Source: an uncultured Chryseobacterium sp. (GTDB taxonomy: Bacteria; Bacteroidota; Bacteroidia; Palsa-965). Taken from it: a stretch of DNA of 46,693 nucleotides. The notes below the pieces were generated by a model, which had not been told where the DNA came from, did no database searches, and worked only from the letters and a program-made list of their open reading frames with translations. The position numbers were made by a program, and so were the translations under genes. The DNA lies in the NCBI GenBank assembly GCA_964394965.1, contig CAYMZV010000002.1:1-46693 (forward strand). The letters are read 5' to 3'. This document shows, in pieces, positions 1-31,181 of the stretch; within the stretch, counting starts at the first letter, position 1; the number at the start of each line of letters is the position of its first letter.

Positions 1-1427
1 CCTGTTCCCGTTGCCGTAACAACAAAACTCACTGAATCACCAACACAAACCACGTGATTGGTAGGTTGCGTTGTGATGTTGGGAGCAATTGCGCCACAGC
101 CCGGAGGCATGATTGCAAGAATGGCTGATGTGTTTAAAGCGCCTGTTGTTGTAAGTGCCCTGCCGTTAAGCGTAACATTGGTCAGCAAATCCATTGCTCC
201 GTTATTGCAAATAATTGTTCCGTTGAAAATGGAGTTGTCATTTATGCTGACGGCACCGTTGACTTCCCAAAAAACATTTTTCGCTTGTGTGCCATTGATC
301 AGATTCACTTTTGAAGAAACACTTGTAGAAAGTGCACCGTTGATATGAATCAGGAACACAGCGTTTGCATCACCTTCAGCATTGAGATAAAGCGTATCGG
401 TAAATGTGCAAGCCGAATTCATGATGTAAGTGTGCGGTGTAAGAACCAAGTTGTGTCCGAATTGTGCGGGATACAACAGTTCTATATCATAAGGAATTGC
501 ATTGAGATAATTGTAGACGGTGGTCAAATCGGTTGCACAAATGGCTGTTGAACCATCGGGAATCGGATGAATCATTCCGGTAACGAACAAAGGATTGTAA
601 CCTGTTGTCAACCCATTGTTGCTGCCCACATCACCCGTGACATGTGTAACTCCAACATTTGTAACCGGGCCGATGGAAGAAAATAAGGTGTAGCAAGCGG
701 TCGATAAAAGATTCGGTGCAAGCGGTCCGGTCAACAAAAGACTTCCGCAACCGATCGGTGTATATGCCAACACGCCGTCAACAGTGACAGCGCCCGCAGT
801 GGAGAGTGCACGTCCTTCGAGTGTGTCGCCTGTGCTCATGTTGATTGCTGCGTTGTTTGCAATGACAGTTCCGCGCATTGTTGTTCCGGTAGCCATGCTT
901 ACCAAACCTTCAATTTTCCAAAATACATTACATGCCAACGCTCCGTTGATCAACGTGACTTTTGAATTTGCATTTGCTGAAAAAGGCGCTTGGATCTGAA
1001 AAATGAAAACCGCATTCGGATTGTTCTGTCCATCAAGAATGAGATTCAGGTTCAGTGTGGTTGCACTTGAAATGGAATACACCCCTGCATTGAGAATTTG
1101 TCCGTTGCCCAATAAATTTGCCGGAAAGAAAGTCGGGACAGTGGCATTGAGTTGGTTGTACGCGATCAACAAATCGGCAGCACATTGCGCACTTGCCCCA
1201 TCATTGTCGTGCATCACACCATCCACATTTCCGAAGCCCGTGCTCGATCCGCTGTTCGTTCCCACATTTCCCGTAAGGTGCGAAAGTCCTGTATTGCTCA
1301 CTGCACCGACAGTTGTAAACAGAACAAAATCAGCCGCAGTTCCGAGTGGCGGAGCCTGCGCGAAAGCCAATGTTGAGAGCGATAACAGTGCAGCGGTTGT
1401 TATCTTATGTAATAATTTGTTTTTCAT
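1..1427 (-). CDS. Ice-binding-like protein with two tandem DUF3494 domains followed by Ig-like repeats; partial, 3' end runs off the left edge
   Basis: Absent from the ORF track because it leaves the window. Hand translation of the reverse strand from ATG 1427 stays open to base 1. It reads MKNKLLHKITTAALLSLSTLAFAQAPPLGTAADFVLFTTVGAVSNTGLSHLTGNVGTNSGSSTGF...NVFWKIEG...GRALSTAGAVTV. A second unit follows: TACYTLFSSIGPVTNVGVTHVTGDVGSNNGLTTGY...NVFWEVNG...GRALTTTGALN. Then comes APNITTQPTNHVVCVGDSVSFVVTATGTG. A signal peptide is present. Both units align with the paralog at 2397..3509. Confidence 0.8.
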   Translation of the reverse strand, partial: MKNKLLHKITTAALLSLSTLAFAQAPPLGTAADFVLFTTVGAVSNTGLSHLTGNVGTNSGSSTGFGNVDGVMHDNDGASAQCAADLLIAYNQLNATVPTFFPANLLGNGQILNAGVYSISSATTLNLNLILDGQNNPNAVFIFQIQAPFSANANSKVTLINGALACNVFWKIEGLVSMATGTTMRGTVIANNAAINMSTGDTLEGRALSTAGAVTVDGVLAYTPIGCGSLLLTGPLAPNLLSTACYTLFSSIGPVTNVGVTHVTGDVGSNNGLTTGYNPLFVTGMIHPIPDGSTAICATDLTTVYNYLNAIPYDIELLYPAQFGHNLVLTPHTYIMNSACTFTDTLYLNAEGDANAVFLIHINGALSTSVSSKVNLINGTQAKNVFWEVNGAVSINDNSIFNGTIICNNGAMDLLTNVTLNGRALTTTGALNTSAILAIMPPGCGAIAPNITTQPTNHVVCVGDSVSFVVTATGT

Positions 1428-1464
1428 TTTGCTTGATGTTAGTGTGATTTTATTTTTCACTGCT

Positions 1465-1533
1465 CAAAGGTGAGCCGCCGGTCATCCCAAACTGTTACAG
1501 AACTCTTGCGATTAGTTACATCATTCACACATT
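1465..1533 (-). promoter_or_regulatory. Composite stress-regulon promoter element, copy a (drives the gene at 1..1427)
   Basis: In gene orientation: AATGTGTGAATGATGTAACTAATCGCAAGAGTTCTGTAACA, 20 nt, CACCTTTG. The box lies 38 nt from the ATG at 1427. Confidence 0.65.
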
Positions 1534-1621
1534 AGGCTTTCAATGAAAAAGCATTTCCATACCCAAATGAAAACGCTTTTGTCCGATCCGGAATATCGGG
1601 TTGTCTTACAAACCAACCTCC

Positions 1622-2383
1622 TTATTGTGCCAAAAATCCCCCATCGATTTCCATTGCGGTTCCTGTCATGAACGAACTGTCATCGCAAGCGAGAAAAATA
1701 AATGCTGCTGCAATCTCTTCCGATTTGCCCAAACGTTTCATCGGATGCATTGCAACAATCTGCTGCTTGACATCCGCATGAACGTCAAAACCACCCTTGG
1801 TAAGCAAGGGCGTGTCGATGAATGCCGGACAAATTGCATTGATGCGTATCCCGTCGGCAGCGTATTCCAACGCAGCCGTTTGTGTGAGTCCGATCACGCC
1901 GTGTTTTGCCGCAACGTAATGCGATGAAGTGGCGAATCCCACTTTACCCAAAATGGAAGACATATTTATGATCACTCCCCTTTTCTGTTTCAGCATCTGT
2001 GTCAACTCATGTTTCATGCCATTGAATACACCGTTCAAGTTCACACCAATCACTTTCAGCCACGCCTGTTCGCCCATATCACCCACTTTATCGGGTTCGC
2101 CTCCAATGCCGGCATTGTTAAGTGCTACATCAAGCGTTCCGAATGCACTTACCGTTTTTTGAATTGCATTTTCCACTTGTGCAAAAACAGACACGTCGCA
2201 TTCCAAAAAAATCGCGTTCGGGTTTTCATTGCGTATTTCCTGCATTGCCTGATCGACAGTATCGGATTTCATATCTGCTACTGCAACATTGGCTCCTTCT
2301 TTTGCCGCTGCCATTGCACATGCCTTGCCAATACCCGACAATCCTCCAGTGATAAACACCGTTTTGTTTTCCAGCTTTTTCAT
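1622..2383 (-). CDS. Short-chain dehydrogenase/reductase (SDR) family oxidoreductase
   Basis: Track ORF 1622..2434 trimmed to the Met at 2383 just before the Rossmann motif KTVFITGGLSGIGKA. NNAG and the catalytic YVAAKHG (YxxxK) are present. Trimming removes the overlap with the upstream stop at 2397. Confidence 0.85.
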   Translation of the reverse strand: MKKLENKTVFITGGLSGIGKACAMAAAKEGANVAVADMKSDTVDQAMQEIRNENPNAIFLECDVSVFAQVENAIQKTVSAFGTLDVALNNAGIGGEPDKVGDMGEQAWLKVIGVNLNGVFNGMKHELTQMLKQKRGVIINMSSILGKVGFATSSHYVAAKHGVIGLTQTAALEYAADGIRINAICPAFIDTPLLTKGGFDVHADVKQQIVAMHPMKRLGKSEEIAAAFIFLACDDSSFMTGTAMEIDGGFLAQ

Positions 2384-2396
2384 TTTGTGTCGATTT

Positions 2397-3509
2397 TCAT
2401 TTTTGAAAAATTCCATTTCCTGATTTTTCTTCAACAGTCCCGTCCTTGTAATAAATAAATCTCAAGCCTTCATAATCCGCACTCACTTCCTGACCCAACG
2501 CATTTGTCACTCGCACCATTTGCCGAACAACAATCGTATTGTCAATGACAATGATGTCGAATGTGTGGGATTGTCCATTATAATCGGTTTGTTTCAATCG
2601 GTAATAATTCACTGTTTTGTCAAAACCATAATCTGCGAAGGAATAATCATTCGGTTGCGAACTCGTTCCCGCTCCGTTGACTCTTGCGACCTGCGTGAAA
2701 TTTTCCCCGTCGGTTGCTCTTTCCAAGGTGAAATAATCATTATTCGTTTCGGTGGCAGTGGACCACGACAATAGATTGTAAGCATGTTTATCCGATCCAT
2801 TGAAAAACAATAATTCAATCGGTAAAACAATTTGGGAAGGTGAACAGGATAACGAGGCTGTCATTGTAGAAATGTTTATGGCCCCTCCAATGGAAAGTCC
2901 CCTTCCTTCAAGTGTTGAGCCATCCAATAAGTTGAGTGCGCCATTGGCAATTACCGTTCCCTGGAAAACAGAACTGTCGCCCAAATCGAATTCCCCATTC
3001 ACTTGCCAATACACATTGCACATGGAAGCGGAATTGATCAGGATCACATTCGACAATGAGTTTGCAGCCAAAGCGCCGTTGATCTTGAAAATGAATAACG
3101 CATTGGGATCACCTTGGGCATCCAATGTCAAATCGCCATTCAATGATGAAGCTCCCATGCAATAAACATTGGGAGAAAGGATCTGGTTGTTTCCCAATAC
3201 AACTCCTATAACGGTATCACAAGTGATTGCATTCATAAAACTGTAAGCGGAATCCGCATCCGATGCCGCTTGCAATGAAACGGAATCCGTCAAATGGGTT
3301 TGTCCGTTTATTGTTCCGGGAGGAAATCCGGTGAATGCCCCTGCATTTGTACCGATATCACCTGTGGCAACTGTCGCTCCAACATTCGTGAATGCACCGA
3401 CTGCCGTAAACAGGACAAAAGACGATGCCGCCCCCAAATTGGGCGACTGTCCGAAATTCATTTTGGGGAAGAGAACAAATACGAGAATAAATAGCGACTT
3501 ACCTTTCAC
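2397..3509 (-). CDS. Ice-binding-like protein (single DUF3494 domain) with a C-terminal beta-sandwich domain
   Basis: LGAASSFVLFTAVGAFTNVGATVATGDIGTNAGAFTGFPPGTINGQTH, NVYWQVNG and GRGLSIGGAINI match the DUF3494 ice-binding fold signature. The C-terminus carries LPIELLFFNG...NNDYFTLERATDGENF...YYRLKQTDYNGQ. The track start ATG 3548 is only 3 nt from the -7-like box (3551..3558), so it lies upstream of the expected TSS. GTG 3509 gives a signal peptide MKGKSLFILVFVLFPKMNFGQ. The start is inferred. Confidence 0.75.
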   Translation of the reverse strand: MKGKSLFILVFVLFPKMNFGQSPNLGAASSFVLFTAVGAFTNVGATVATGDIGTNAGAFTGFPPGTINGQTHLTDSVSLQAASDADSAYSFMNAITCDTVIGVVLGNNQILSPNVYCMGASSLNGDLTLDAQGDPNALFIFKINGALAANSLSNVILINSASMCNVYWQVNGEFDLGDSSVFQGTVIANGALNLLDGSTLEGRGLSIGGAINISTMTASLSCSPSQIVLPIELLFFNGSDKHAYNLLSWSTATETNNDYFTLERATDGENFTQVARVNGAGTSSQPNDYSFADYGFDKTVNYYRLKQTDYNGQSHTFDIIVIDNTIVVRQMVRVTNALGQEVSADYEGLRFIYYKDGTVEEKSGNGIFQK

Positions 3510-3550
3510 TCCCGTACAATTTATATTGCGAATGAATATCCACAACACAA

Positions 3551-3618
3551 CAAAGGTGAGTCCTTAAGAATGGCAATTGTTACAGAACTCTTTCAATTAC
3601 TTACATCATTCACACATT
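3551..3618 (-). promoter_or_regulatory. Composite stress-regulon promoter element, copy b (drives 2397..3509 plus the SDR)
   Basis: AATGTGTGAATGATGTAAGTAATTGAAAGAGTTCTGTAACA, 19 nt, CACCTTTG. Confidence 0.65.
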
Positions 3619-3690
3619 CGGCGTTCAATGAAAAAGCATTTCCATTCTGGATGAGCATGCTTTTGAAATGATGCCAATGAAGCCATTATT

Positions 3691-4083
3691 TCAGCCAGGA
3701 ACTGTTTGTATTTCCTTTTCCGGTGTTATACATTTCTTCATCATTTCCAACAATGTATCCAATTCAAAAGGTTTGGTGATGTAATCGGCAGCACCCGACT
3801 TCAAAGCATTCGCCTTATCATTCTTTTCGGAAAGTGAACTGCTGAAAATAAAAGGTATGGAGGAAATCTTGGCTGTGTGCAAGAGCAACTGCAACACTTC
3901 ATGACCATCCATCTCACGCATTATTATATCACATATTATCAGGTCAGGCATAAATTCAGTGGCGAGTTCAATTCCCTTTTTCCCGTTATCGGTTGCAAGA
4001 ATCCTATAGCCTTCCATTTCAAGGTACTCGGTCAGGTTATCGAGAATTTCAGGATTGTCCTCGATCAATAAAATTGTTTCCAT
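3691..4083 (-). CDS. Stand-alone response-regulator receiver (CheY-like)
   Basis: ILLIEDNPE, DLIICDIIMREMDG (acceptor Asp) and ADYITKPF are present. There is no output domain. It is the last gene of the long operon that starts at 10573. Confidence 0.85.
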   Translation of the reverse strand: METILLIEDNPEILDNLTEYLEMEGYRILATDNGKKGIELATEFMPDLIICDIIMREMDGHEVLQLLLHTAKISSIPFIFSSSLSEKNDKANALKSGAADYITKPFELDTLLEMMKKCITPEKEIQTVPG

Positions 4084-12450: not shown

Positions 12451-12491
12451 TTTGTTTATTTTTTTATTGTGAATGAATTTTCACAACGTAA

Positions 12492-22904: not shown

Positions 22905-22987
22905 GGGACGTTTTTATTTATTTAATGATTCGGCCTTGAATGATATTTTCATGACCCGATTTTTTCAGTGAATGAATTTTCACAGGC

Positions 22988-30614: not shown

Positions 30615-31181
30615 TTAATTTCCCACTTCCTCGATGGGGCTTCTCCTCTTGTCTTTCAATTGCTTGAAATGCGAAGGTGAAAGTCCGGTCACTTTCTTGA
30701 ATTGATTCGATAAATGTGCGACGCTGCTGTAATTCATTTTCCAGGCGATTTCGGTAATGTTCAATTCGCCGTAAATGATCAATTCCTTTATGCGTTCGAT
30801 TTTATGGGAGATGATGAATTGTTCAATGGTGGTTCCCTGCACTTCGGAAAACAGATTCGCGAGATAGGTGTAATCGTGATTCATTTTTTCACTGAGGAAA
30901 TCGGAAAAATTCATTTTGATCATTTCATCGCTGTGATGCACCATTTGCACGATCACATTTTTTATTTTTTCAATCAGCATGGCCCTTTTGTCGTCCATCA
31001 ATTCAAGACCCGCTTCCAACAGACCCGCTTTCACCTGTTCGCGCTGTTCGGCTGAAATGTTTTCCATGATTTCAACTTCACCCAAATCCACCACCATGAA
31101 ATGAAGTCCGAGTTCTTTCAACACTTCTTTCACCACAATTTTGCAGCGGGCGCTCACCATGTATTTGATGTATAATTTCAA
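30615..31181 (-). CDS. AraC-family transcriptional regulator with a small N-terminal domain
   Basis: The C-terminus has two HTH units (YTYLANLFSEVQGTTIEQFIISHKIERIKELI and ITEIAWKMNYSSVAHLSNQFKKVTG). The track start 31313 would run through the promoter motif. TTG 31181 (MKLYIKYMVSARCKIVV) or ATG 31160 are the plausible starts. Confidence 0.75.
   Translation of the reverse strand: MKLYIKYMVSARCKIVVKEVLKELGLHFMVVDLGEVEIMENISAEQREQVKAGLLEAGLELMDDKRAMLIEKIKNVIVQMVHHSDEMIKMNFSDFLSEKMNHDYTYLANLFSEVQGTTIEQFIISHKIERIKELIIYGELNITEIAWKMNYSSVAHLSNQFKKVTGLSPSHFKQLKDKRRSPIEEVGN

What the first reader, a model, noticed from the sequence alone, without database searches (positions are those of the whole stretch)
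1..3645. Two adjacent ice-binding-like (DUF3494) genes, one a two-domain form, both under the regulon motif
Gene 1..1427 encodes two complete DUF3494 units in tandem followed by Ig-like repeats. Gene 2397..3509 encodes one unit plus a beta-sandwich domain. DUF3494 is the fold of bacterial and algal ice-binding proteins, and multi-domain versions are known from polar Flavobacteriaceae.

The two promoters share the 41-bp motif. They also share an extra exact 22-mer 5 nt upstream of it. On the plus strand it reads TTCAATGAAAAAGCATTTCCAT, at 1539..1560 and 3624..3645. This points to duplication of gene plus promoter, or to an additional control site specific to the ice-binding genes.

Co-regulation of ice-binding proteins with catalase, Dps and CsbD would link freeze protection to a general stress programme.
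Basis: partly seen in the sequence, partly recalled or inferred. Interest (0 to 1): 0.62.

Follow-up and report, generated by a model that had tools for sequence, protein, structure and literature searches.

The report
Antifreeze-type genes wired into stress regulon
Two secreted ice-binding-family genes of an uncultured Bacteroidia bacterium each sit behind a long promoter motif that marks a stress-gene island and recurs upstream of such genes across the class, which gives a first testable lead on how bacteria switch antifreeze genes on; the extra shared 22-mer is most likely part of a terminator hairpin.

Summary
Gene 1 (1427 to the contig end, minus strand) has two DUF3494 domains and aligns without gaps, at 59% identity over 427 residues, with IBPv, the crystallised two-domain antifreeze of Vostok-ice isolate 3519-10. 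It most likely continues on contig C407 with Ig-like repeats, a type-B T9SS tail and a PorP/SprF partner gene. Gene 2 (3509..2397) is one DUF3494 domain, an FN3-like sandwich and a short tail, and forms an operon with an SDR gene.

Both genes carry the 38-41-bp motif 65-68 nt before the start codon. The exact 22-mer is real but occurs only in this species. It is missing from the third DUF3494 paralogue (C361) and from 26 congeners. Its first 14 nt form the 3' arm of a terminator-like hairpin that ends the upstream unit. It is therefore probably not an ice-gene operator, and the genes are too diverged (43% protein identity) for a recent duplication of gene plus promoter.

The new result is the link between motif and ice-binding genes. 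The motif precedes IBPv-like genes in 41 of 80 loci from diverse Bacteroidota. Motif, DUF3494 genes and an AraC-type regulator co-occur within the genus and the class. Ice binding and the inducing signal remain untested.

The parts
1..1427 (-). Gene 1, the 5' part of an IBPv-like two-domain DUF3494 gene, cut by the contig end. Signal peptide 1359-1427, domain A about 747-1358, domain B about 96-719, start of the first Ig-like repeat 3-80.
   Evidence: PF11999 at 3.3e-74 with 2 stretches. Gapless alignment of residues 24-450 to PDB 5UYT, E 7e-149, 59% identity. The window is the start of contig C2.
1444..1472 (-). Gene 1 core promoter and leader: -7-type box CACCTTTG (1465-1472) and leader inverted repeat GTGAAAAATAAAATCAC (1444-1460).
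   Evidence: Read directly from the sequence. TTTG/TTTA lies 23-24 nt after the motif end in all 78 related promoters examined.
1493..1533 (-). Regulon motif upstream of gene 1. The 38-nt core GTGTGAATGATGTAACTAATCGCAAGAGTTCTGTAACA is at 1493-1530. It contains TGTAAC direct repeats 21 bp apart.
   Evidence: PWM score 54.9 bits. It is one of 23 sites in the genome, 13 of them in this window.
1539..1560 (-). 22-mer copy 1. In gene sense it reads ATGGAAATGCTTTTTCATTGAA.
   Evidence: Exact match.
1547..1580 (-). Terminator-like hairpin after the SDR gene: AAAAGCGUUUUCAU, loop UUGGGU, AUGGAAAUGCUUUU, then UCAUU.
   Evidence: 14-bp stem including 2 G-U pairs. The 70-nt context folds at -19.6 kcal/mol, z -2.4. 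The hairpin starts 41 nt after the SDR stop codon.
1622..2389 (-). Short-chain dehydrogenase/reductase gene. It starts 7 nt after the gene 2 stop codon, so it is probably co-transcribed with gene 2.
   Evidence: PF13561 at 1e-63 and PF00106 at 2.8e-56. The spacing is read from the sequence.
2397..3509 (-). Gene 2. Signal peptide, DUF3494 domain (about 2844-3446), FN3-like beta-sandwich (about 2541-2813), and a short three-strand C-terminal tail (about 2421-2519).
   Evidence: PF11999 at 3.7e-41. AlphaFold model with pLDDT 86. Foldseek gives 5UYT at E 6.5e-17 and 7BWY with TM 0.96. More than 2,600 homologues, of about 368 aa or about 411 aa; the longer ones carry Por_Secre_tail.
3528..3558 (-). 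Gene 2 core promoter and leader: CACCTTTG (3551-3558) and leader inverted repeat GTGGATATTCATTCGC (3528-3543). The repeat pairs fully as RNA with two G-U pairs.
   Evidence: Read directly from the sequence.
3578..3618 (-). Regulon motif upstream of gene 2 (38-nt core at 3578-3615).
   Evidence: PWM score 53.0 bits. 35 of 38 positions match the gene 1 copy.
3624..3645 (-). 22-mer copy 2.
   Evidence: Exact match.
3632..3664 (-). Hairpin after the receiver gene (3691..4083), the last gene of the catalase operon: AAAAGCAUGCUCAU, loop CCAGA, AUGGAAAUGCUUUU. The stem is 8+4 bp with a 2x2 internal loop.
   Evidence: Fold. This copy is weaker than the first: z -1.4 for 70 nt and -0.7 for 85 nt.

Best explanation
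The region holds two separately transcribed, secreted ice-binding-family genes.

Gene 1 is an IBPv-type tandem DUF3494 protein. By inference it continues on contig C407 with at least 6 Ig-like repeats and a type-B (CHU_C) T9SS sorting domain, next to a PorP/SprF gene. That would be a cell-surface-anchored protein that holds two antifreeze-type domains away from the cell, resembling an ice adhesin.

Gene 2 is a single DUF3494 domain with an FN3-like domain and a truncated sorting tail. It is co-transcribed with an SDR gene.

Each unit starts from a weak sigma-A-type promoter. The -7 box is CAnnTTTG and there is no -33 TTTG. Where the -33 element would be, there is a 38-bp site with TGTAAC direct repeats 21 bp apart. 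I infer that this site is bound by the island's autoregulated AraC-type activator (30615..31181). The same promoter type drives the catalase/phosphorelay operon, Dps, CsbD and others, so the ice-binding genes are switched together with a stress cassette. This wiring is conserved in many Bacteroidia.

The shared 22-mer is not a separate ice-gene operator. It is the 3' arm and U-rich tail of a terminator-like hairpin that closes the upstream unit (the SDR gene in one case, the last gene of the catalase operon in the other). A tract of about 68 nt (hairpin arm, spacer, motif) has been copied or homogenised between the two promoters, which lie 2,085 bp apart, within this species.

Shown: domain content, homology, the repeats, the predicted hairpins, and conservation and co-occurrence of the motif. 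Inferred: the join to C407, activator identity, terminator function, ice binding and the inducing signal.
For: Proteins:
- Pfam hits.
- Gene 1 against 5UYT: E 7e-149, 59% identity, no gaps. All four disulfide cysteines are conserved. Eight of ten first-row ice-binding-site residues are kept or stay small, including A364, A391 and A410, whose mutation cuts thermal hysteresis in IBPv.
- The gene 2 model matches ice-binding protein structures.

Continuation of gene 1:
- Orthologues at 72-79% identity are 1081-1085 aa, with 2 DUF3494 domains, Ig_3/I-set repeats and CHU_C, followed by a PorP/SprF gene.
- C407 starts in mid-repeat, is 63% identical to that C-terminal part, and encodes CHU_C and then PorP/SprF.

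Promoter:
- 23 PWM sites in the genome.
- The motif lies upstream of 22 of 25 complete DUF3494 genes (score 15 bits or more) fetched from 11 congeners and 2 other families.
- It lies upstream of 41 of 80 IBPv-like loci at 20 bits or more. In most it sits 62-69 nt from the start of the protein match, and all 41 have the TTTG/TTTA box.
- It lies upstream of 3 of 3 gene 2-like loci.

Co-occurrence:
- Genus: all 12 congeners with DUF3494 have 4-18 motif hits. Of the 14 without it, 11 have 0-1 and three have 3-5 weaker hits.
- Genus: an AraC orthologue of at least 68% identity is found in 11 of 12 against 0 of 14, often on the contig that holds the ice-binding genes.
- Class sample of 200: at least 2 motif hits in 18 of 31 genomes with DUF3494 against 9 of 169 without.
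- All 11 genomes with at least 6 motif hits have an AraC orthologue of at least 68% identity.

22-mer:
- Hairpins.
- Absent from the C361 paralogue promoter, from 26 congeners and from metagenomes, apart from one contig of the same species.
- In related promoters, T-runs or hairpins directly upstream of the motif are common (21 of 41), while the sequence there is not conserved.
- Identity is 63 of 68 in the tract, 37 of 71 in the core promoter and leader, and 56% in coding DNA.
Against: - The simple terminator scan did not flag either hairpin. The stems are A/U-rich and the U-run is partly inside the stem.
- The gene 2 copy folds no better than many shuffles (z -0.7 to -1.4).
- The right arm is identical in both copies while the left arms differ. 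A DNA site under selection would also give this pattern.
- There is no sequence overlap that joins C2 to C407.
- The AraC assignment rests on co-occurrence among related genomes. Homologues of this AraC type are widespread (83 of 201 genomes).
- Nine genomes have the motif without DUF3494, and eight have DUF3494 without the motif.
- The scaffold that encodes IBPv and the Kaistella jeonii and Flavobacterium endophyticum loci lack the motif.
- Two first-row ice-binding positions are Pro in gene 1, and the position equivalent to L174/A391 is Glu in gene 2.
Confidence: 0.68

Rival explanations
1. The 22-mer is a second protein-binding site, an upstream operator or activator site at about -76 to -97, that gives these two genes an extra layer of control.
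For: - It is exact over 22 nt in both copies, while the complementary left arms of the hairpins differ.
- It lies at the same 5-nt distance from the motif in both copies.
- The pair is an outlier among 253 promoter pairs for upstream identity: 35 of 55 against a mean of 19, sd 2.8.
Against: - It is absent from the third DUF3494 gene's motif promoter in the same genome.
- It is absent from all 26 congeners at up to 2 mismatches.
- In the metagenome collection it is found only in one contig of the same species.
- The sequence directly upstream of the motif is not conserved among 41 related promoters of ice-binding genes.
- With about 84% identity over 90 nt, an exact run of 22 nt is not surprising.
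Confidence: 0.12
2. Gene 1 and gene 2 arose by a recent tandem duplication of gene plus promoter, and the 22-mer is simply what is left of it.
For: - They are neighbouring paralogues in the same orientation, each with the motif.
- Clusters of DUF3494 genes, each with its own motif, are common in relatives.
Against: - The proteins are 41-43% identical and the coding DNA 56%.
- The core promoter and 5'UTR agree at only 37 of 71 positions. Only the 68-nt tract is near-identical.
- Gene 1 is much closer to the C361 paralogue (74%) and to IBPv (59%) than to gene 2.
- An old duplication followed by a recent local copy or conversion of the upstream tract fits better.
Confidence: 0.06
3. The proteins do not act on ice. 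DUF3494 here is a beta-helix surface or adhesin module with another ligand, and the regulon is a general stress or envelope programme unrelated to freezing.
For: - Both score far below the NCBIfam equivalog cut-off for ice-binding protein (101.6 and 48.5 bits against 400).
- IBPv homologues occur in species not tied to ice, such as Flavobacterium endophyticum and Kaistella daneshvariae.
- Gene 1 is fused to adhesin-type Ig repeats and a type-B tail of the SprB kind.
- Gene 2 has Glu at a first-row position of the ice-binding site.
- The regulon's other cargo is oxidative and general stress genes.
Against: - 59% gapless identity to a protein with measured thermal hysteresis. The disulfides and three of the four domain-B first-row residues shown by mutagenesis to matter are conserved, and the fourth changes from G to A.
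- Every solved structure similar to the gene 2 model at E up to 1e-8 is an ice-binding or antifreeze protein.
- By record title, many related loci come from seasonally or permanently cold sites: boreal and subarctic lakes, a palsa and a bin labelled MDV, which I read as McMurdo Dry Valleys. Sampling bias is not excluded.
Confidence: 0.2
4. The 38-bp motif is read by an alternative (ECF-type) sigma factor, with TGTAACA as its -35 element, and not by an AraC-type activator that helps sigma-A.
For: - GTAAC-like -35 elements are typical of ECF sigma factors (own knowledge).
- General stress regulons with catalase, Dps and CsbD are sigma-controlled in Bacillus (sigma-B) and Alphaproteobacteria (EcfG) (own knowledge).
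Against: - The downstream element CAnnTTTG resembles the Bacteroidota sigma-A -7 box TAnnTTTG (own knowledge). It lies 20 nt from TGTAACA, which is longer than ECF spacers.
- Conservation extends about 30 nt upstream of the -35 position as phased direct repeats, as expected for a bound activator.
- An AraC-type gene that carries the motif upstream of itself co-occurs with the motif in the genus and the class, and is often linked to it.
Confidence: 0.12

Closest known systems
IBPv, the two-domain antifreeze of Flavobacteriaceae isolate 3519-10 from the Vostok ice core (PDB 5UYT; PMC5673226, PMC3245957)
   Same: Gene 1 has the same tandem DUF3494 architecture. It aligns without gaps at 59% identity over 427 residues. 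Both intradomain disulfides and most of the small-residue row of the ice-binding site are conserved, and it has an N-terminal signal peptide. The C361 paralogue also shares IBPv's type-A T9SS tail.
   Different: Gene 1 most likely carries Ig-like repeats and a type-B (CHU_C) tail with a PorP/SprF partner, where IBPv has the short type-A tail. That implies surface anchoring and not release. Two first-row positions are Pro. A scaffold encoding a protein that matches the 427 crystallised IBPv residues has no regulon motif, and IBPv was reported to be constitutive at 4-25 C.
SfIBP_1 of Shewanella frigidimarina (PDB 6BG8), a DUF3494 domain on tandem Ig-like domains, proposed to be an ice adhesin (role recalled from own knowledge)
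   Same: A DUF3494 ice-binding module joined to a stalk of Ig-like beta-sandwich repeats that would tether it to the cell surface. 6BG8 is a significant sequence and structure match.
   Different: The domain order and anchor differ. Here the DUF3494 domains are N-terminal and the anchor is a C-terminal T9SS type-B domain. There are two ice-binding domains and not one. Sequence identity is only about 27%.
Double-domain DUF3494 proteins of sea-ice Flavobacteriales, from metagenomes (PMC9957290)
   Same: That survey reports double-domain ice-binding proteins as the second most abundant architecture, mostly from Flavobacteriales and often with signal peptides.
   Different: The survey looked at neighbouring genes but did not report a shared promoter motif or a regulator. 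The present genome belongs to an uncultured Bacteroidia genus whose relatives' record titles point to lakes, soil and ice-affected sites.
AraC/XylS-type class II activation (own knowledge), and general stress regulons with catalase, Dps and CsbD (sigma-B of Bacillus, EcfG of Alphaproteobacteria; own knowledge)
   Same: Phased direct repeats 21 bp apart that overlap the -35 position of a weak promoter. The regulator gene carries the site upstream of itself. The cargo of catalase, Dps, CsbD and an SDR is typical of general stress regulons.
   Different: Binding has not been shown. The regulator would be an activator and not a sigma factor. The regulon is an accessory island, present in about half of the genus, and it includes secreted ice-binding-family proteins, which are not known cargo of those regulons.

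Membership tests
DUF3494 / Ice_binding (PF11999) | Profile match above Pfam's gathering score | tested here: met
   Gene 1 scores 249.5 bits (2 domains) and gene 2 scores 141.5 bits, against a cut-off of 28.7.
DUF3494 / Ice_binding (PF11999) | Irregular right-handed beta-helix with one long alpha-helix alongside | tested here: met
   The gene 2 AlphaFold model (pLDDT 86) has helix 76-94 and beta-helix strands. Foldseek gives 7BWY with TM 0.96 and rmsd 1.2, and 5UYT with rmsd 2.0. Gene 1 was not modelled. It is 59% identical, without gaps, to the 5UYT crystal sequence.
IBPv-type two-domain antifreeze | Two tandem DUF3494 domains, each with its intradomain disulfide (C165-C226, C244-C443) | tested here: met
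   All four Cys are conserved at the aligned positions in gene 1.
IBPv-type two-domain antifreeze | Row of small residues (Ala/Gly) on the flat ice-binding face. A364, A391, A410 and G429 are needed for thermal hysteresis. | tested here: inconclusive
   Gene 1 keeps A364, A391 and A410, and G429 becomes A. A253 and A147 become Pro, and S431 becomes N. Domain A keeps L174 and T214 (residues). Flatness could not be measured because the tool returns no coordinates.
IBPv-type two-domain antifreeze | Measured ice activity (thermal hysteresis, recrystallisation inhibition) | not testable with these tools
   This needs recombinant protein and ice assays.
NCBIfam NF045625 IBP_CFB (equivalog 'ice-binding protein') | Score at or above the curated equivalog cut-off of 400 bits | tested here: not met
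   101.6 and 48.5 bits. These genes are not members of that equivalog. Some congeners carry a separate single-domain type of about 245-260 aa that scores about 220 bits on Pfam, and this genome lacks it.
T9SS type-B cargo with PorP/SprF partner | C-terminal CHU_C domain and an adjacent PorP/SprF gene | tested here: inconclusive
   Met on contig C407 (CHU_C 3.6e-27, PorP_SprF 1.6e-84) and in the contiguous orthologues L035 and L044. The join of C407 to gene 1 is inferred, because there is no overlapping sequence.
T9SS type-A cargo (gene 2) | Por_Secre_tail domain of about 75 residues | tested here: not met
   Gene 2 has no PF18962 hit. The model shows only three strands after the sandwich. The relatives of about 411 aa do carry PF18962. 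Export of gene 2 beyond the periplasm is therefore uncertain.
Intrinsic (rho-independent) terminator | Stable stem-loop followed directly by a U-run, just after a stop codon | tested here: inconclusive
   Copy 1 has a 14-bp stem, z -2.4, then UCAUU, and starts 41 nt after the SDR stop. Copy 2 is interrupted, z -0.7 to -1.4, and starts 26 nt after the receiver gene stop. The consensus scan did not list either. No 3'-end data are available.
AraC/XylS-activated class II promoter | Direct-repeat half-sites about 21 bp apart that overlap -35, bound by an AraC-family protein | tested here: inconclusive
   The repeats and their position are shown. The AraC-type gene co-occurs with the motif and carries it upstream of itself. 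Binding is not testable here.

The most novel reading that the evidence does not exclude
Ice-binding genes of the IBPv and related types are core cargo of an accessory island. The island is gained and lost as a unit in Bacteroidia and carries its own AraC-type activator, a phosphorelay and a fixed promoter module about 100 bp long. The module consists of a 38-bp activator site, the CAnnTTTG box and a 5'-terminal leader hairpin GUGAA-N6-UUCAC. The hairpin is only marginally stable and could act as a cold-favoured mRNA element. This would be the first transcriptional circuit described for bacterial antifreeze proteins. It would tie secretion of ice-binding proteins to oxidative and general stress defence as one freeze-survival programme.
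Probability: 0.35. Interest if true: 0.72.

Novelty: new variant of a known kind. Interest (0 to 1): 0.5.

Why it matters
Bacterial DUF3494 ice-binding proteins are well studied as structures and for applications. My searches of the open-access paper library found nothing on how bacteria control them. The one expression study of the closest characterised protein says that what is known about regulation comes mainly from fish.

Three things found here together turn 'when and why do bacteria make antifreeze?' into an ordinary genetics experiment:
- a conserved promoter module at a fixed distance from the start codon;
- a candidate activator that co-occurs with it;
- cultured carriers, for example Flavobacterium psychrotolerans RB1R5, whose IBPv-like gene has a motif copy of 26 bits (locus L095).

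The result also gives a search handle for the rest of the freeze/stress cassette. It suggests that some ice-binding proteins are tethered to the cell by T9SS type-B anchors and are not released.

The 22-mer is of little consequence.

Tried and rejected
- Mini-ORF reading of the 22-mer. In gene sense it reads ATG GAA ATG CTT TTT CAT TGA (MEMLFH*). It lies upstream of the promoter, in the 3' tail of the preceding unit. On the other strand the ORFs differ between the two copies (8 codons against about 45). I rejected this as chance.
- Repeat or mobile-element family. Genome-wide, only these two copies fall within 2 mismatches; the 3-4-mismatch hits look random.
- Known RNA family. Rfam gives nothing at E up to 1 for 1380-3760.
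- First regex scan for the motif. The pattern was too strict and missed the real sites, so I replaced it with a PWM.
- Overlap between the C2 end and C407. No shared k-mer of 15 nt or more.
- Link to the characterised IBPv gene. I found a metagenome scaffold whose protein matches the 427 crystallised IBPv residues, and it has no motif.
- Published Bacteroidota general stress regulon or regulator of ice-binding genes. Four library searches found nothing. One 2026 paper on a cold-induced Flavobacterium protein concerns a protein that is not a DUF3494 protein.

Full report
**1. What is there**

The window is the first 46,693 bases of contig C2 of a 4.54-Mb assembly in 491 contigs, 97.5% complete, 43.7% G+C. 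All genes of the finding are on the minus strand.

- Gene 1 starts at ATG 1427 and runs off the contig end. Its 475 residues have two PF11999 (Ice_binding/DUF3494) domains (3.3e-74), a Sec-type signal peptide, and at the very end about 26 residues of an Ig-like repeat.
- An SDR gene (1622..2389) starts 7 nt after the stop codon of gene 2.
- Gene 2 runs 3509..2397. The GTG start is supported by alignment of its signal peptide with the paralogues. It has one PF11999 domain (3.7e-41).
- An AlphaFold model of gene 2 built from 38 homologues (mean pLDDT 86) shows three parts. These are the DUF3494 beta-helix with its long helix, a beta-sandwich at 233-323 with weak FN3 matches, and three more strands. 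All 31 PDB matches at E up to 1e-8 are ice-binding or antifreeze proteins.
- The 22-mer is exact at 1539-1560 and 3624-3645, with 0.01 matches expected by chance. Each copy lies 5 nt from the 41-bp motif.

The one limit is that only the beginning of the Ig repeats lies in the window.

**2. What the proteins are**

Gene 1 aligns from residue 24 to 450, without a single gap, to PDB 5UYT (E 7e-149; 59% identity). 5UYT is IBPv, the two-domain antifreeze of Flavobacteriaceae isolate 3519-10 from Vostok ice. Its thermal hysteresis and ice-binding face were mapped by mutagenesis (PMC5673226).

Mapped onto gene 1:
- All four disulfide cysteines are conserved.
- In the more active domain B, A364, A391 and A410 are identical and G429 is Ala.
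- The end positions A253 and A147 are Pro.
- Domain A keeps L174 and T214.

Ice binding is thus a well-founded inference for gene 1, but it is not shown. In gene 2 the position equivalent to L174/A391 is Glu, so weak activity would not surprise. Neither protein reaches the NCBIfam equivalog cut-off.

The genome has a third DUF3494 gene on contig C361 (1712..3331). It has two domains plus a type-A Por_Secre_tail and is 74% identical to gene 1.

**3. The missing end of gene 1**

The closest orthologues (72-79% identity) are 1081-1085 residues long. They have two DUF3494 domains, four to five Ig_3/I-set repeats and a CHU_C type-B T9SS domain, and are followed directly by a PorP/SprF gene.

In this genome, contig C407 (3,528 bp) begins in mid-repeat (TYQWRKG...). 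It carries about six and a half such repeats and CHU_C, then a PorP/SprF gene. It is 63% identical to the orthologue's C-terminal part.

Gene 1 ends ...VTATGT(G), which is exactly where the repeat unit continues LTYQWRKG. No sequence overlaps. A metagenome contig of the same species breaks at the same place. I take C407 as the continuation (inference).

PMC9143113 reports in its title that type-B cargo associates with PorP-like proteins for cell-surface anchorage (listed; I did not read the paper). The product would then be a tethered protein with two antifreeze-type domains on an Ig stalk. In topology this resembles the proposed ice adhesin SfIBP_1 (6BG8), though the parts are arranged differently.

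**4. The promoters**

In gene sense, both upstream regions contain these elements in order:
- the 38-nt core GTGTGAAT-NN-TGTAAC-N15-TGTAACA, in which the TGTAAC repeats are 21 bp apart;
- 19-20 nt of spacer;
- CACCTTTG;
- an inverted repeat;
- the start codon, 65 nt (gene 1) or 68 nt (gene 2) after the motif.

A PWM scan finds 23 sites in the genome, 13 of them in this window. All lie in front of genes. Those genes include the nine-gene operon that ends with catalase and the receiver gene, the unit with Dps, two CsbD genes, response regulators, kinase-like proteins, and an AraC-type gene (30615..31181).

From own knowledge, CAnnTTTG resembles the Bacteroidota sigma-A -7 box TAnnTTTG, while the -33 TTTG is replaced by TGTAACA. 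A weak core promoter with phased direct repeats over -35 is the classic layout for an AraC/XylS-type activator.

**5. The link between motif and ice-binding genes is conserved**

Motif upstream of ice-binding genes:
- Among DUF3494 genes fetched from 11 congeners and 2 other families, 22 of 25 with a complete 5' end carry the motif at 15 bits or more, 32-85 nt (mostly 58-71 nt) before the start.
- Among 80 IBPv-like loci from diverse Bacteroidota, 41 have it at 20 bits or more. These include MAGs labelled Bacteroidales, Chitinophagaceae, Flavobacteriales and Sphingobacteriaceae, and the cultured Flavobacterium psychrotolerans. In most the motif lies 62-69 nt from the match, and all 41 have the TTTG box.
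- In 78 related promoters, the TTTG starts 24 nt after the motif in 72 and 23 nt after it in 6.
- Three gene 2-like loci from unrelated samples also have the motif. One of them is flanked by CsbD and a Dps-type ferritin.

Co-occurrence within the genus:
- The 12 congeners with DUF3494 genes have 4-18 motif hits.
- Of the 14 without DUF3494 genes, 11 have 0-1 hits and three have 3-5 weak hits.
- An AraC orthologue of at least 68% identity is present in 11 of the 12 and in none of the 14. It is often on the contig that holds the ice-binding genes.

Co-occurrence in a sample of 200 genomes of the class (each at least 90% complete):

| Group | Genomes with at least 2 motif hits |
|---|---|
| With DUF3494 (31) | 18 |
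| Without DUF3494 (169) | 9 |

- The odds ratio is 24.6. Related genomes are not independent, so the p-value overstates the case.
- All 11 genomes with at least 6 motif hits have an AraC orthologue of at least 68% identity.
- In several families the motif lies directly upstream of that gene.
- Motif sites cluster on single contigs together with the ice-binding genes.

The picture is an accessory island with its own regulator, in which ice-binding genes are regular cargo. The regulon can exist without ice-binding genes (9 genomes). Ice-binding genes can exist without it (8 genomes, some with giant adhesin-like proteins).

**6. The 22-mer**

Three tests speak against an operator specific to ice-binding genes:
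- The C361 paralogue has a motif that agrees at 36 of 38 positions with gene 2's, but unrelated sequence upstream of it.
- No congener has the 22-mer within 2 mismatches.
- An exact search of the metagenome collection finds only one contig, from the same species.

Plain duplication of gene plus promoter does not fit either:

| Segment compared | Identity |
|---|---|
| Proteins | 41-43% |
| Coding DNA | 56% |
| Core promoter and leader | 37 of 71 |
| 22-mer + spacer + motif | 63 of 68 |

Folding shows what the sequence is. The first 14 nt of the 22-mer (AUGGAAAUGCUUUU) pair with AAAAGCGUUUUCAU upstream of gene 1, giving a 14-bp stem with a 6-nt loop. Upstream of gene 2 they pair with AAAAGCAUGCUCAU, giving 8+4 bp. 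A U-rich tail follows in both.

These hairpins start 41 nt after the SDR stop codon and 26 nt after the stop codon of the last gene of the catalase operon. Terminator-like hairpins or T-runs directly upstream of the motif are common elsewhere: in this genome (for example before 12064) and in relatives (21 of 41; clear hairpins in L056, L063 and L069).

I conclude that the 22-mer is a terminator arm plus tail. The tract made of arm, spacer and motif was copied or homogenised between two promoters 2,085 bp apart. One possible route is integration of the gene 2-SDR segment by a single crossover at the motif, which would leave such flanking direct repeats. That route is speculation.

Caveats:
- The simple terminator scan did not list either hairpin.
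- The second hairpin is weak.
- The asymmetry (identical right arms, diverged left arms) leaves some room for a DNA-level function.

**7. Meaning and limits**

The signal is unknown.

IBPv in isolate 3519-10 was detected at all temperatures from 4 to 25 C by end-point RT-PCR (PMC3245957). A scaffold that encodes a protein matching the 427 crystallised IBPv residues has no motif. That fits, but it says nothing about motif-bearing genes.

By their titles, many related records come from boreal and subarctic lakes, a palsa and groundwater, and one bin is labelled MDV, which I read as McMurdo Dry Valleys. This is suggestive and may reflect sampling. No transcript data could be obtained. My searches of the paper library found no described regulator of bacterial DUF3494 genes and no such Bacteroidota regulon.

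**8. Verdict**

- The genes are new members of a known protein family.
- The 22-mer is ordinary.
- The conserved promoter module and its co-occurrence with an AraC-type regulator are a new variant: known parts in a combination not described before. It is directly testable in cultured carriers.
- This scan had already noted the regulon motif and the AraC candidate on this same window (e1-4332704, e1-4332713). What this report adds is conservation across genomes and co-occurrence with ice-binding genes.

Noticed in passing
window 1444-1460, 3528-3543, 12470-12490 and 22950-22975 (approximate); loci L035-L117: An inverted repeat GTGAA-N6-TTCAC starts 4 nt after the CAnnTTTG box in 35 of the 46 promoters that carry it, out of 84 regulon promoters examined. 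That places it at or near the transcript's 5' end. Mismatches between the arms are mostly G-U type on the sense strand (13) and rarely A-C type (2). One case is fully compensated (GTGGA/TCCAC). This hints at an RNA hairpin and not a protein palindrome, but many cases are the same variant and the sequences are related.
   Followed up: partly
L119 1-316 (ENA metagenome scaffold encoding a protein that matches the 427 crystallised IBPv residues): The upstream region of this IBPv-encoding gene has no regulon motif (no PWM score of 8 bits or more anywhere in the locus). This is consistent with the constitutive expression reported for isolate 3519-10.
   Followed up: yes
L120 4991-7602 (Kaistella jeonii, GCA_000812865.1): An AraC-type gene 53.5% identical to the window's AraC gene lies directly upstream of an IBPv orthologue (76% identical to IBPv). 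The canonical motif is absent. Only a loose GTGTGAAA...TATAAC resemblance lies about 100 nt before the -7 box.
   Followed up: partly
L116 2511-5069 (JGI metagenome contig, 254 kb): A gene 2-like DUF3494 gene with the motif is flanked by a divergent CsbD gene, which has its own weaker motif plus box plus leader palindrome, and by a Dps-type ferritin. This is the same company as in the window, in an unrelated sample.
   Followed up: partly
G000 contig C296 2657-3776: A 343-aa secreted protein sits behind a weak motif copy (27.8 bits). It carries the same FN3-like module as gene 2 (LPIKLLFF...YYRLKQTD) followed by a full T9SS tail (IYPNP...). The module is therefore shared among regulon cargo.
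   Followed up: no
G189:C56 73-148 kb; G031:C54 and C71; G113:C145; G114:C121; G047:C88: In other families of the class, motif copies cluster by the dozen on single contigs together with DUF3494 genes and the AraC orthologue. The island organisation is therefore general.
   Followed up: partly
G035:C45:21109-21672; G213:C9:479878-480444; G044:C15:40911-41453: AraC orthologues (65-78% identity) with one internal stop codon occur in three genomes. G035 has no motif hit at all, G044 has 2 and G213 has 6. This may be decay of the regulon.
   Followed up: no
L118 (JGI contig Ga0265334_10020356, 2,718 bp): A metagenome contig of the same species covers the end of gene 2, the SDR gene and gene 1, with 1 substitution in the 261 bases read around the promoter. 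It breaks in the same Ig repeat as contig C2.
   Followed up: yes
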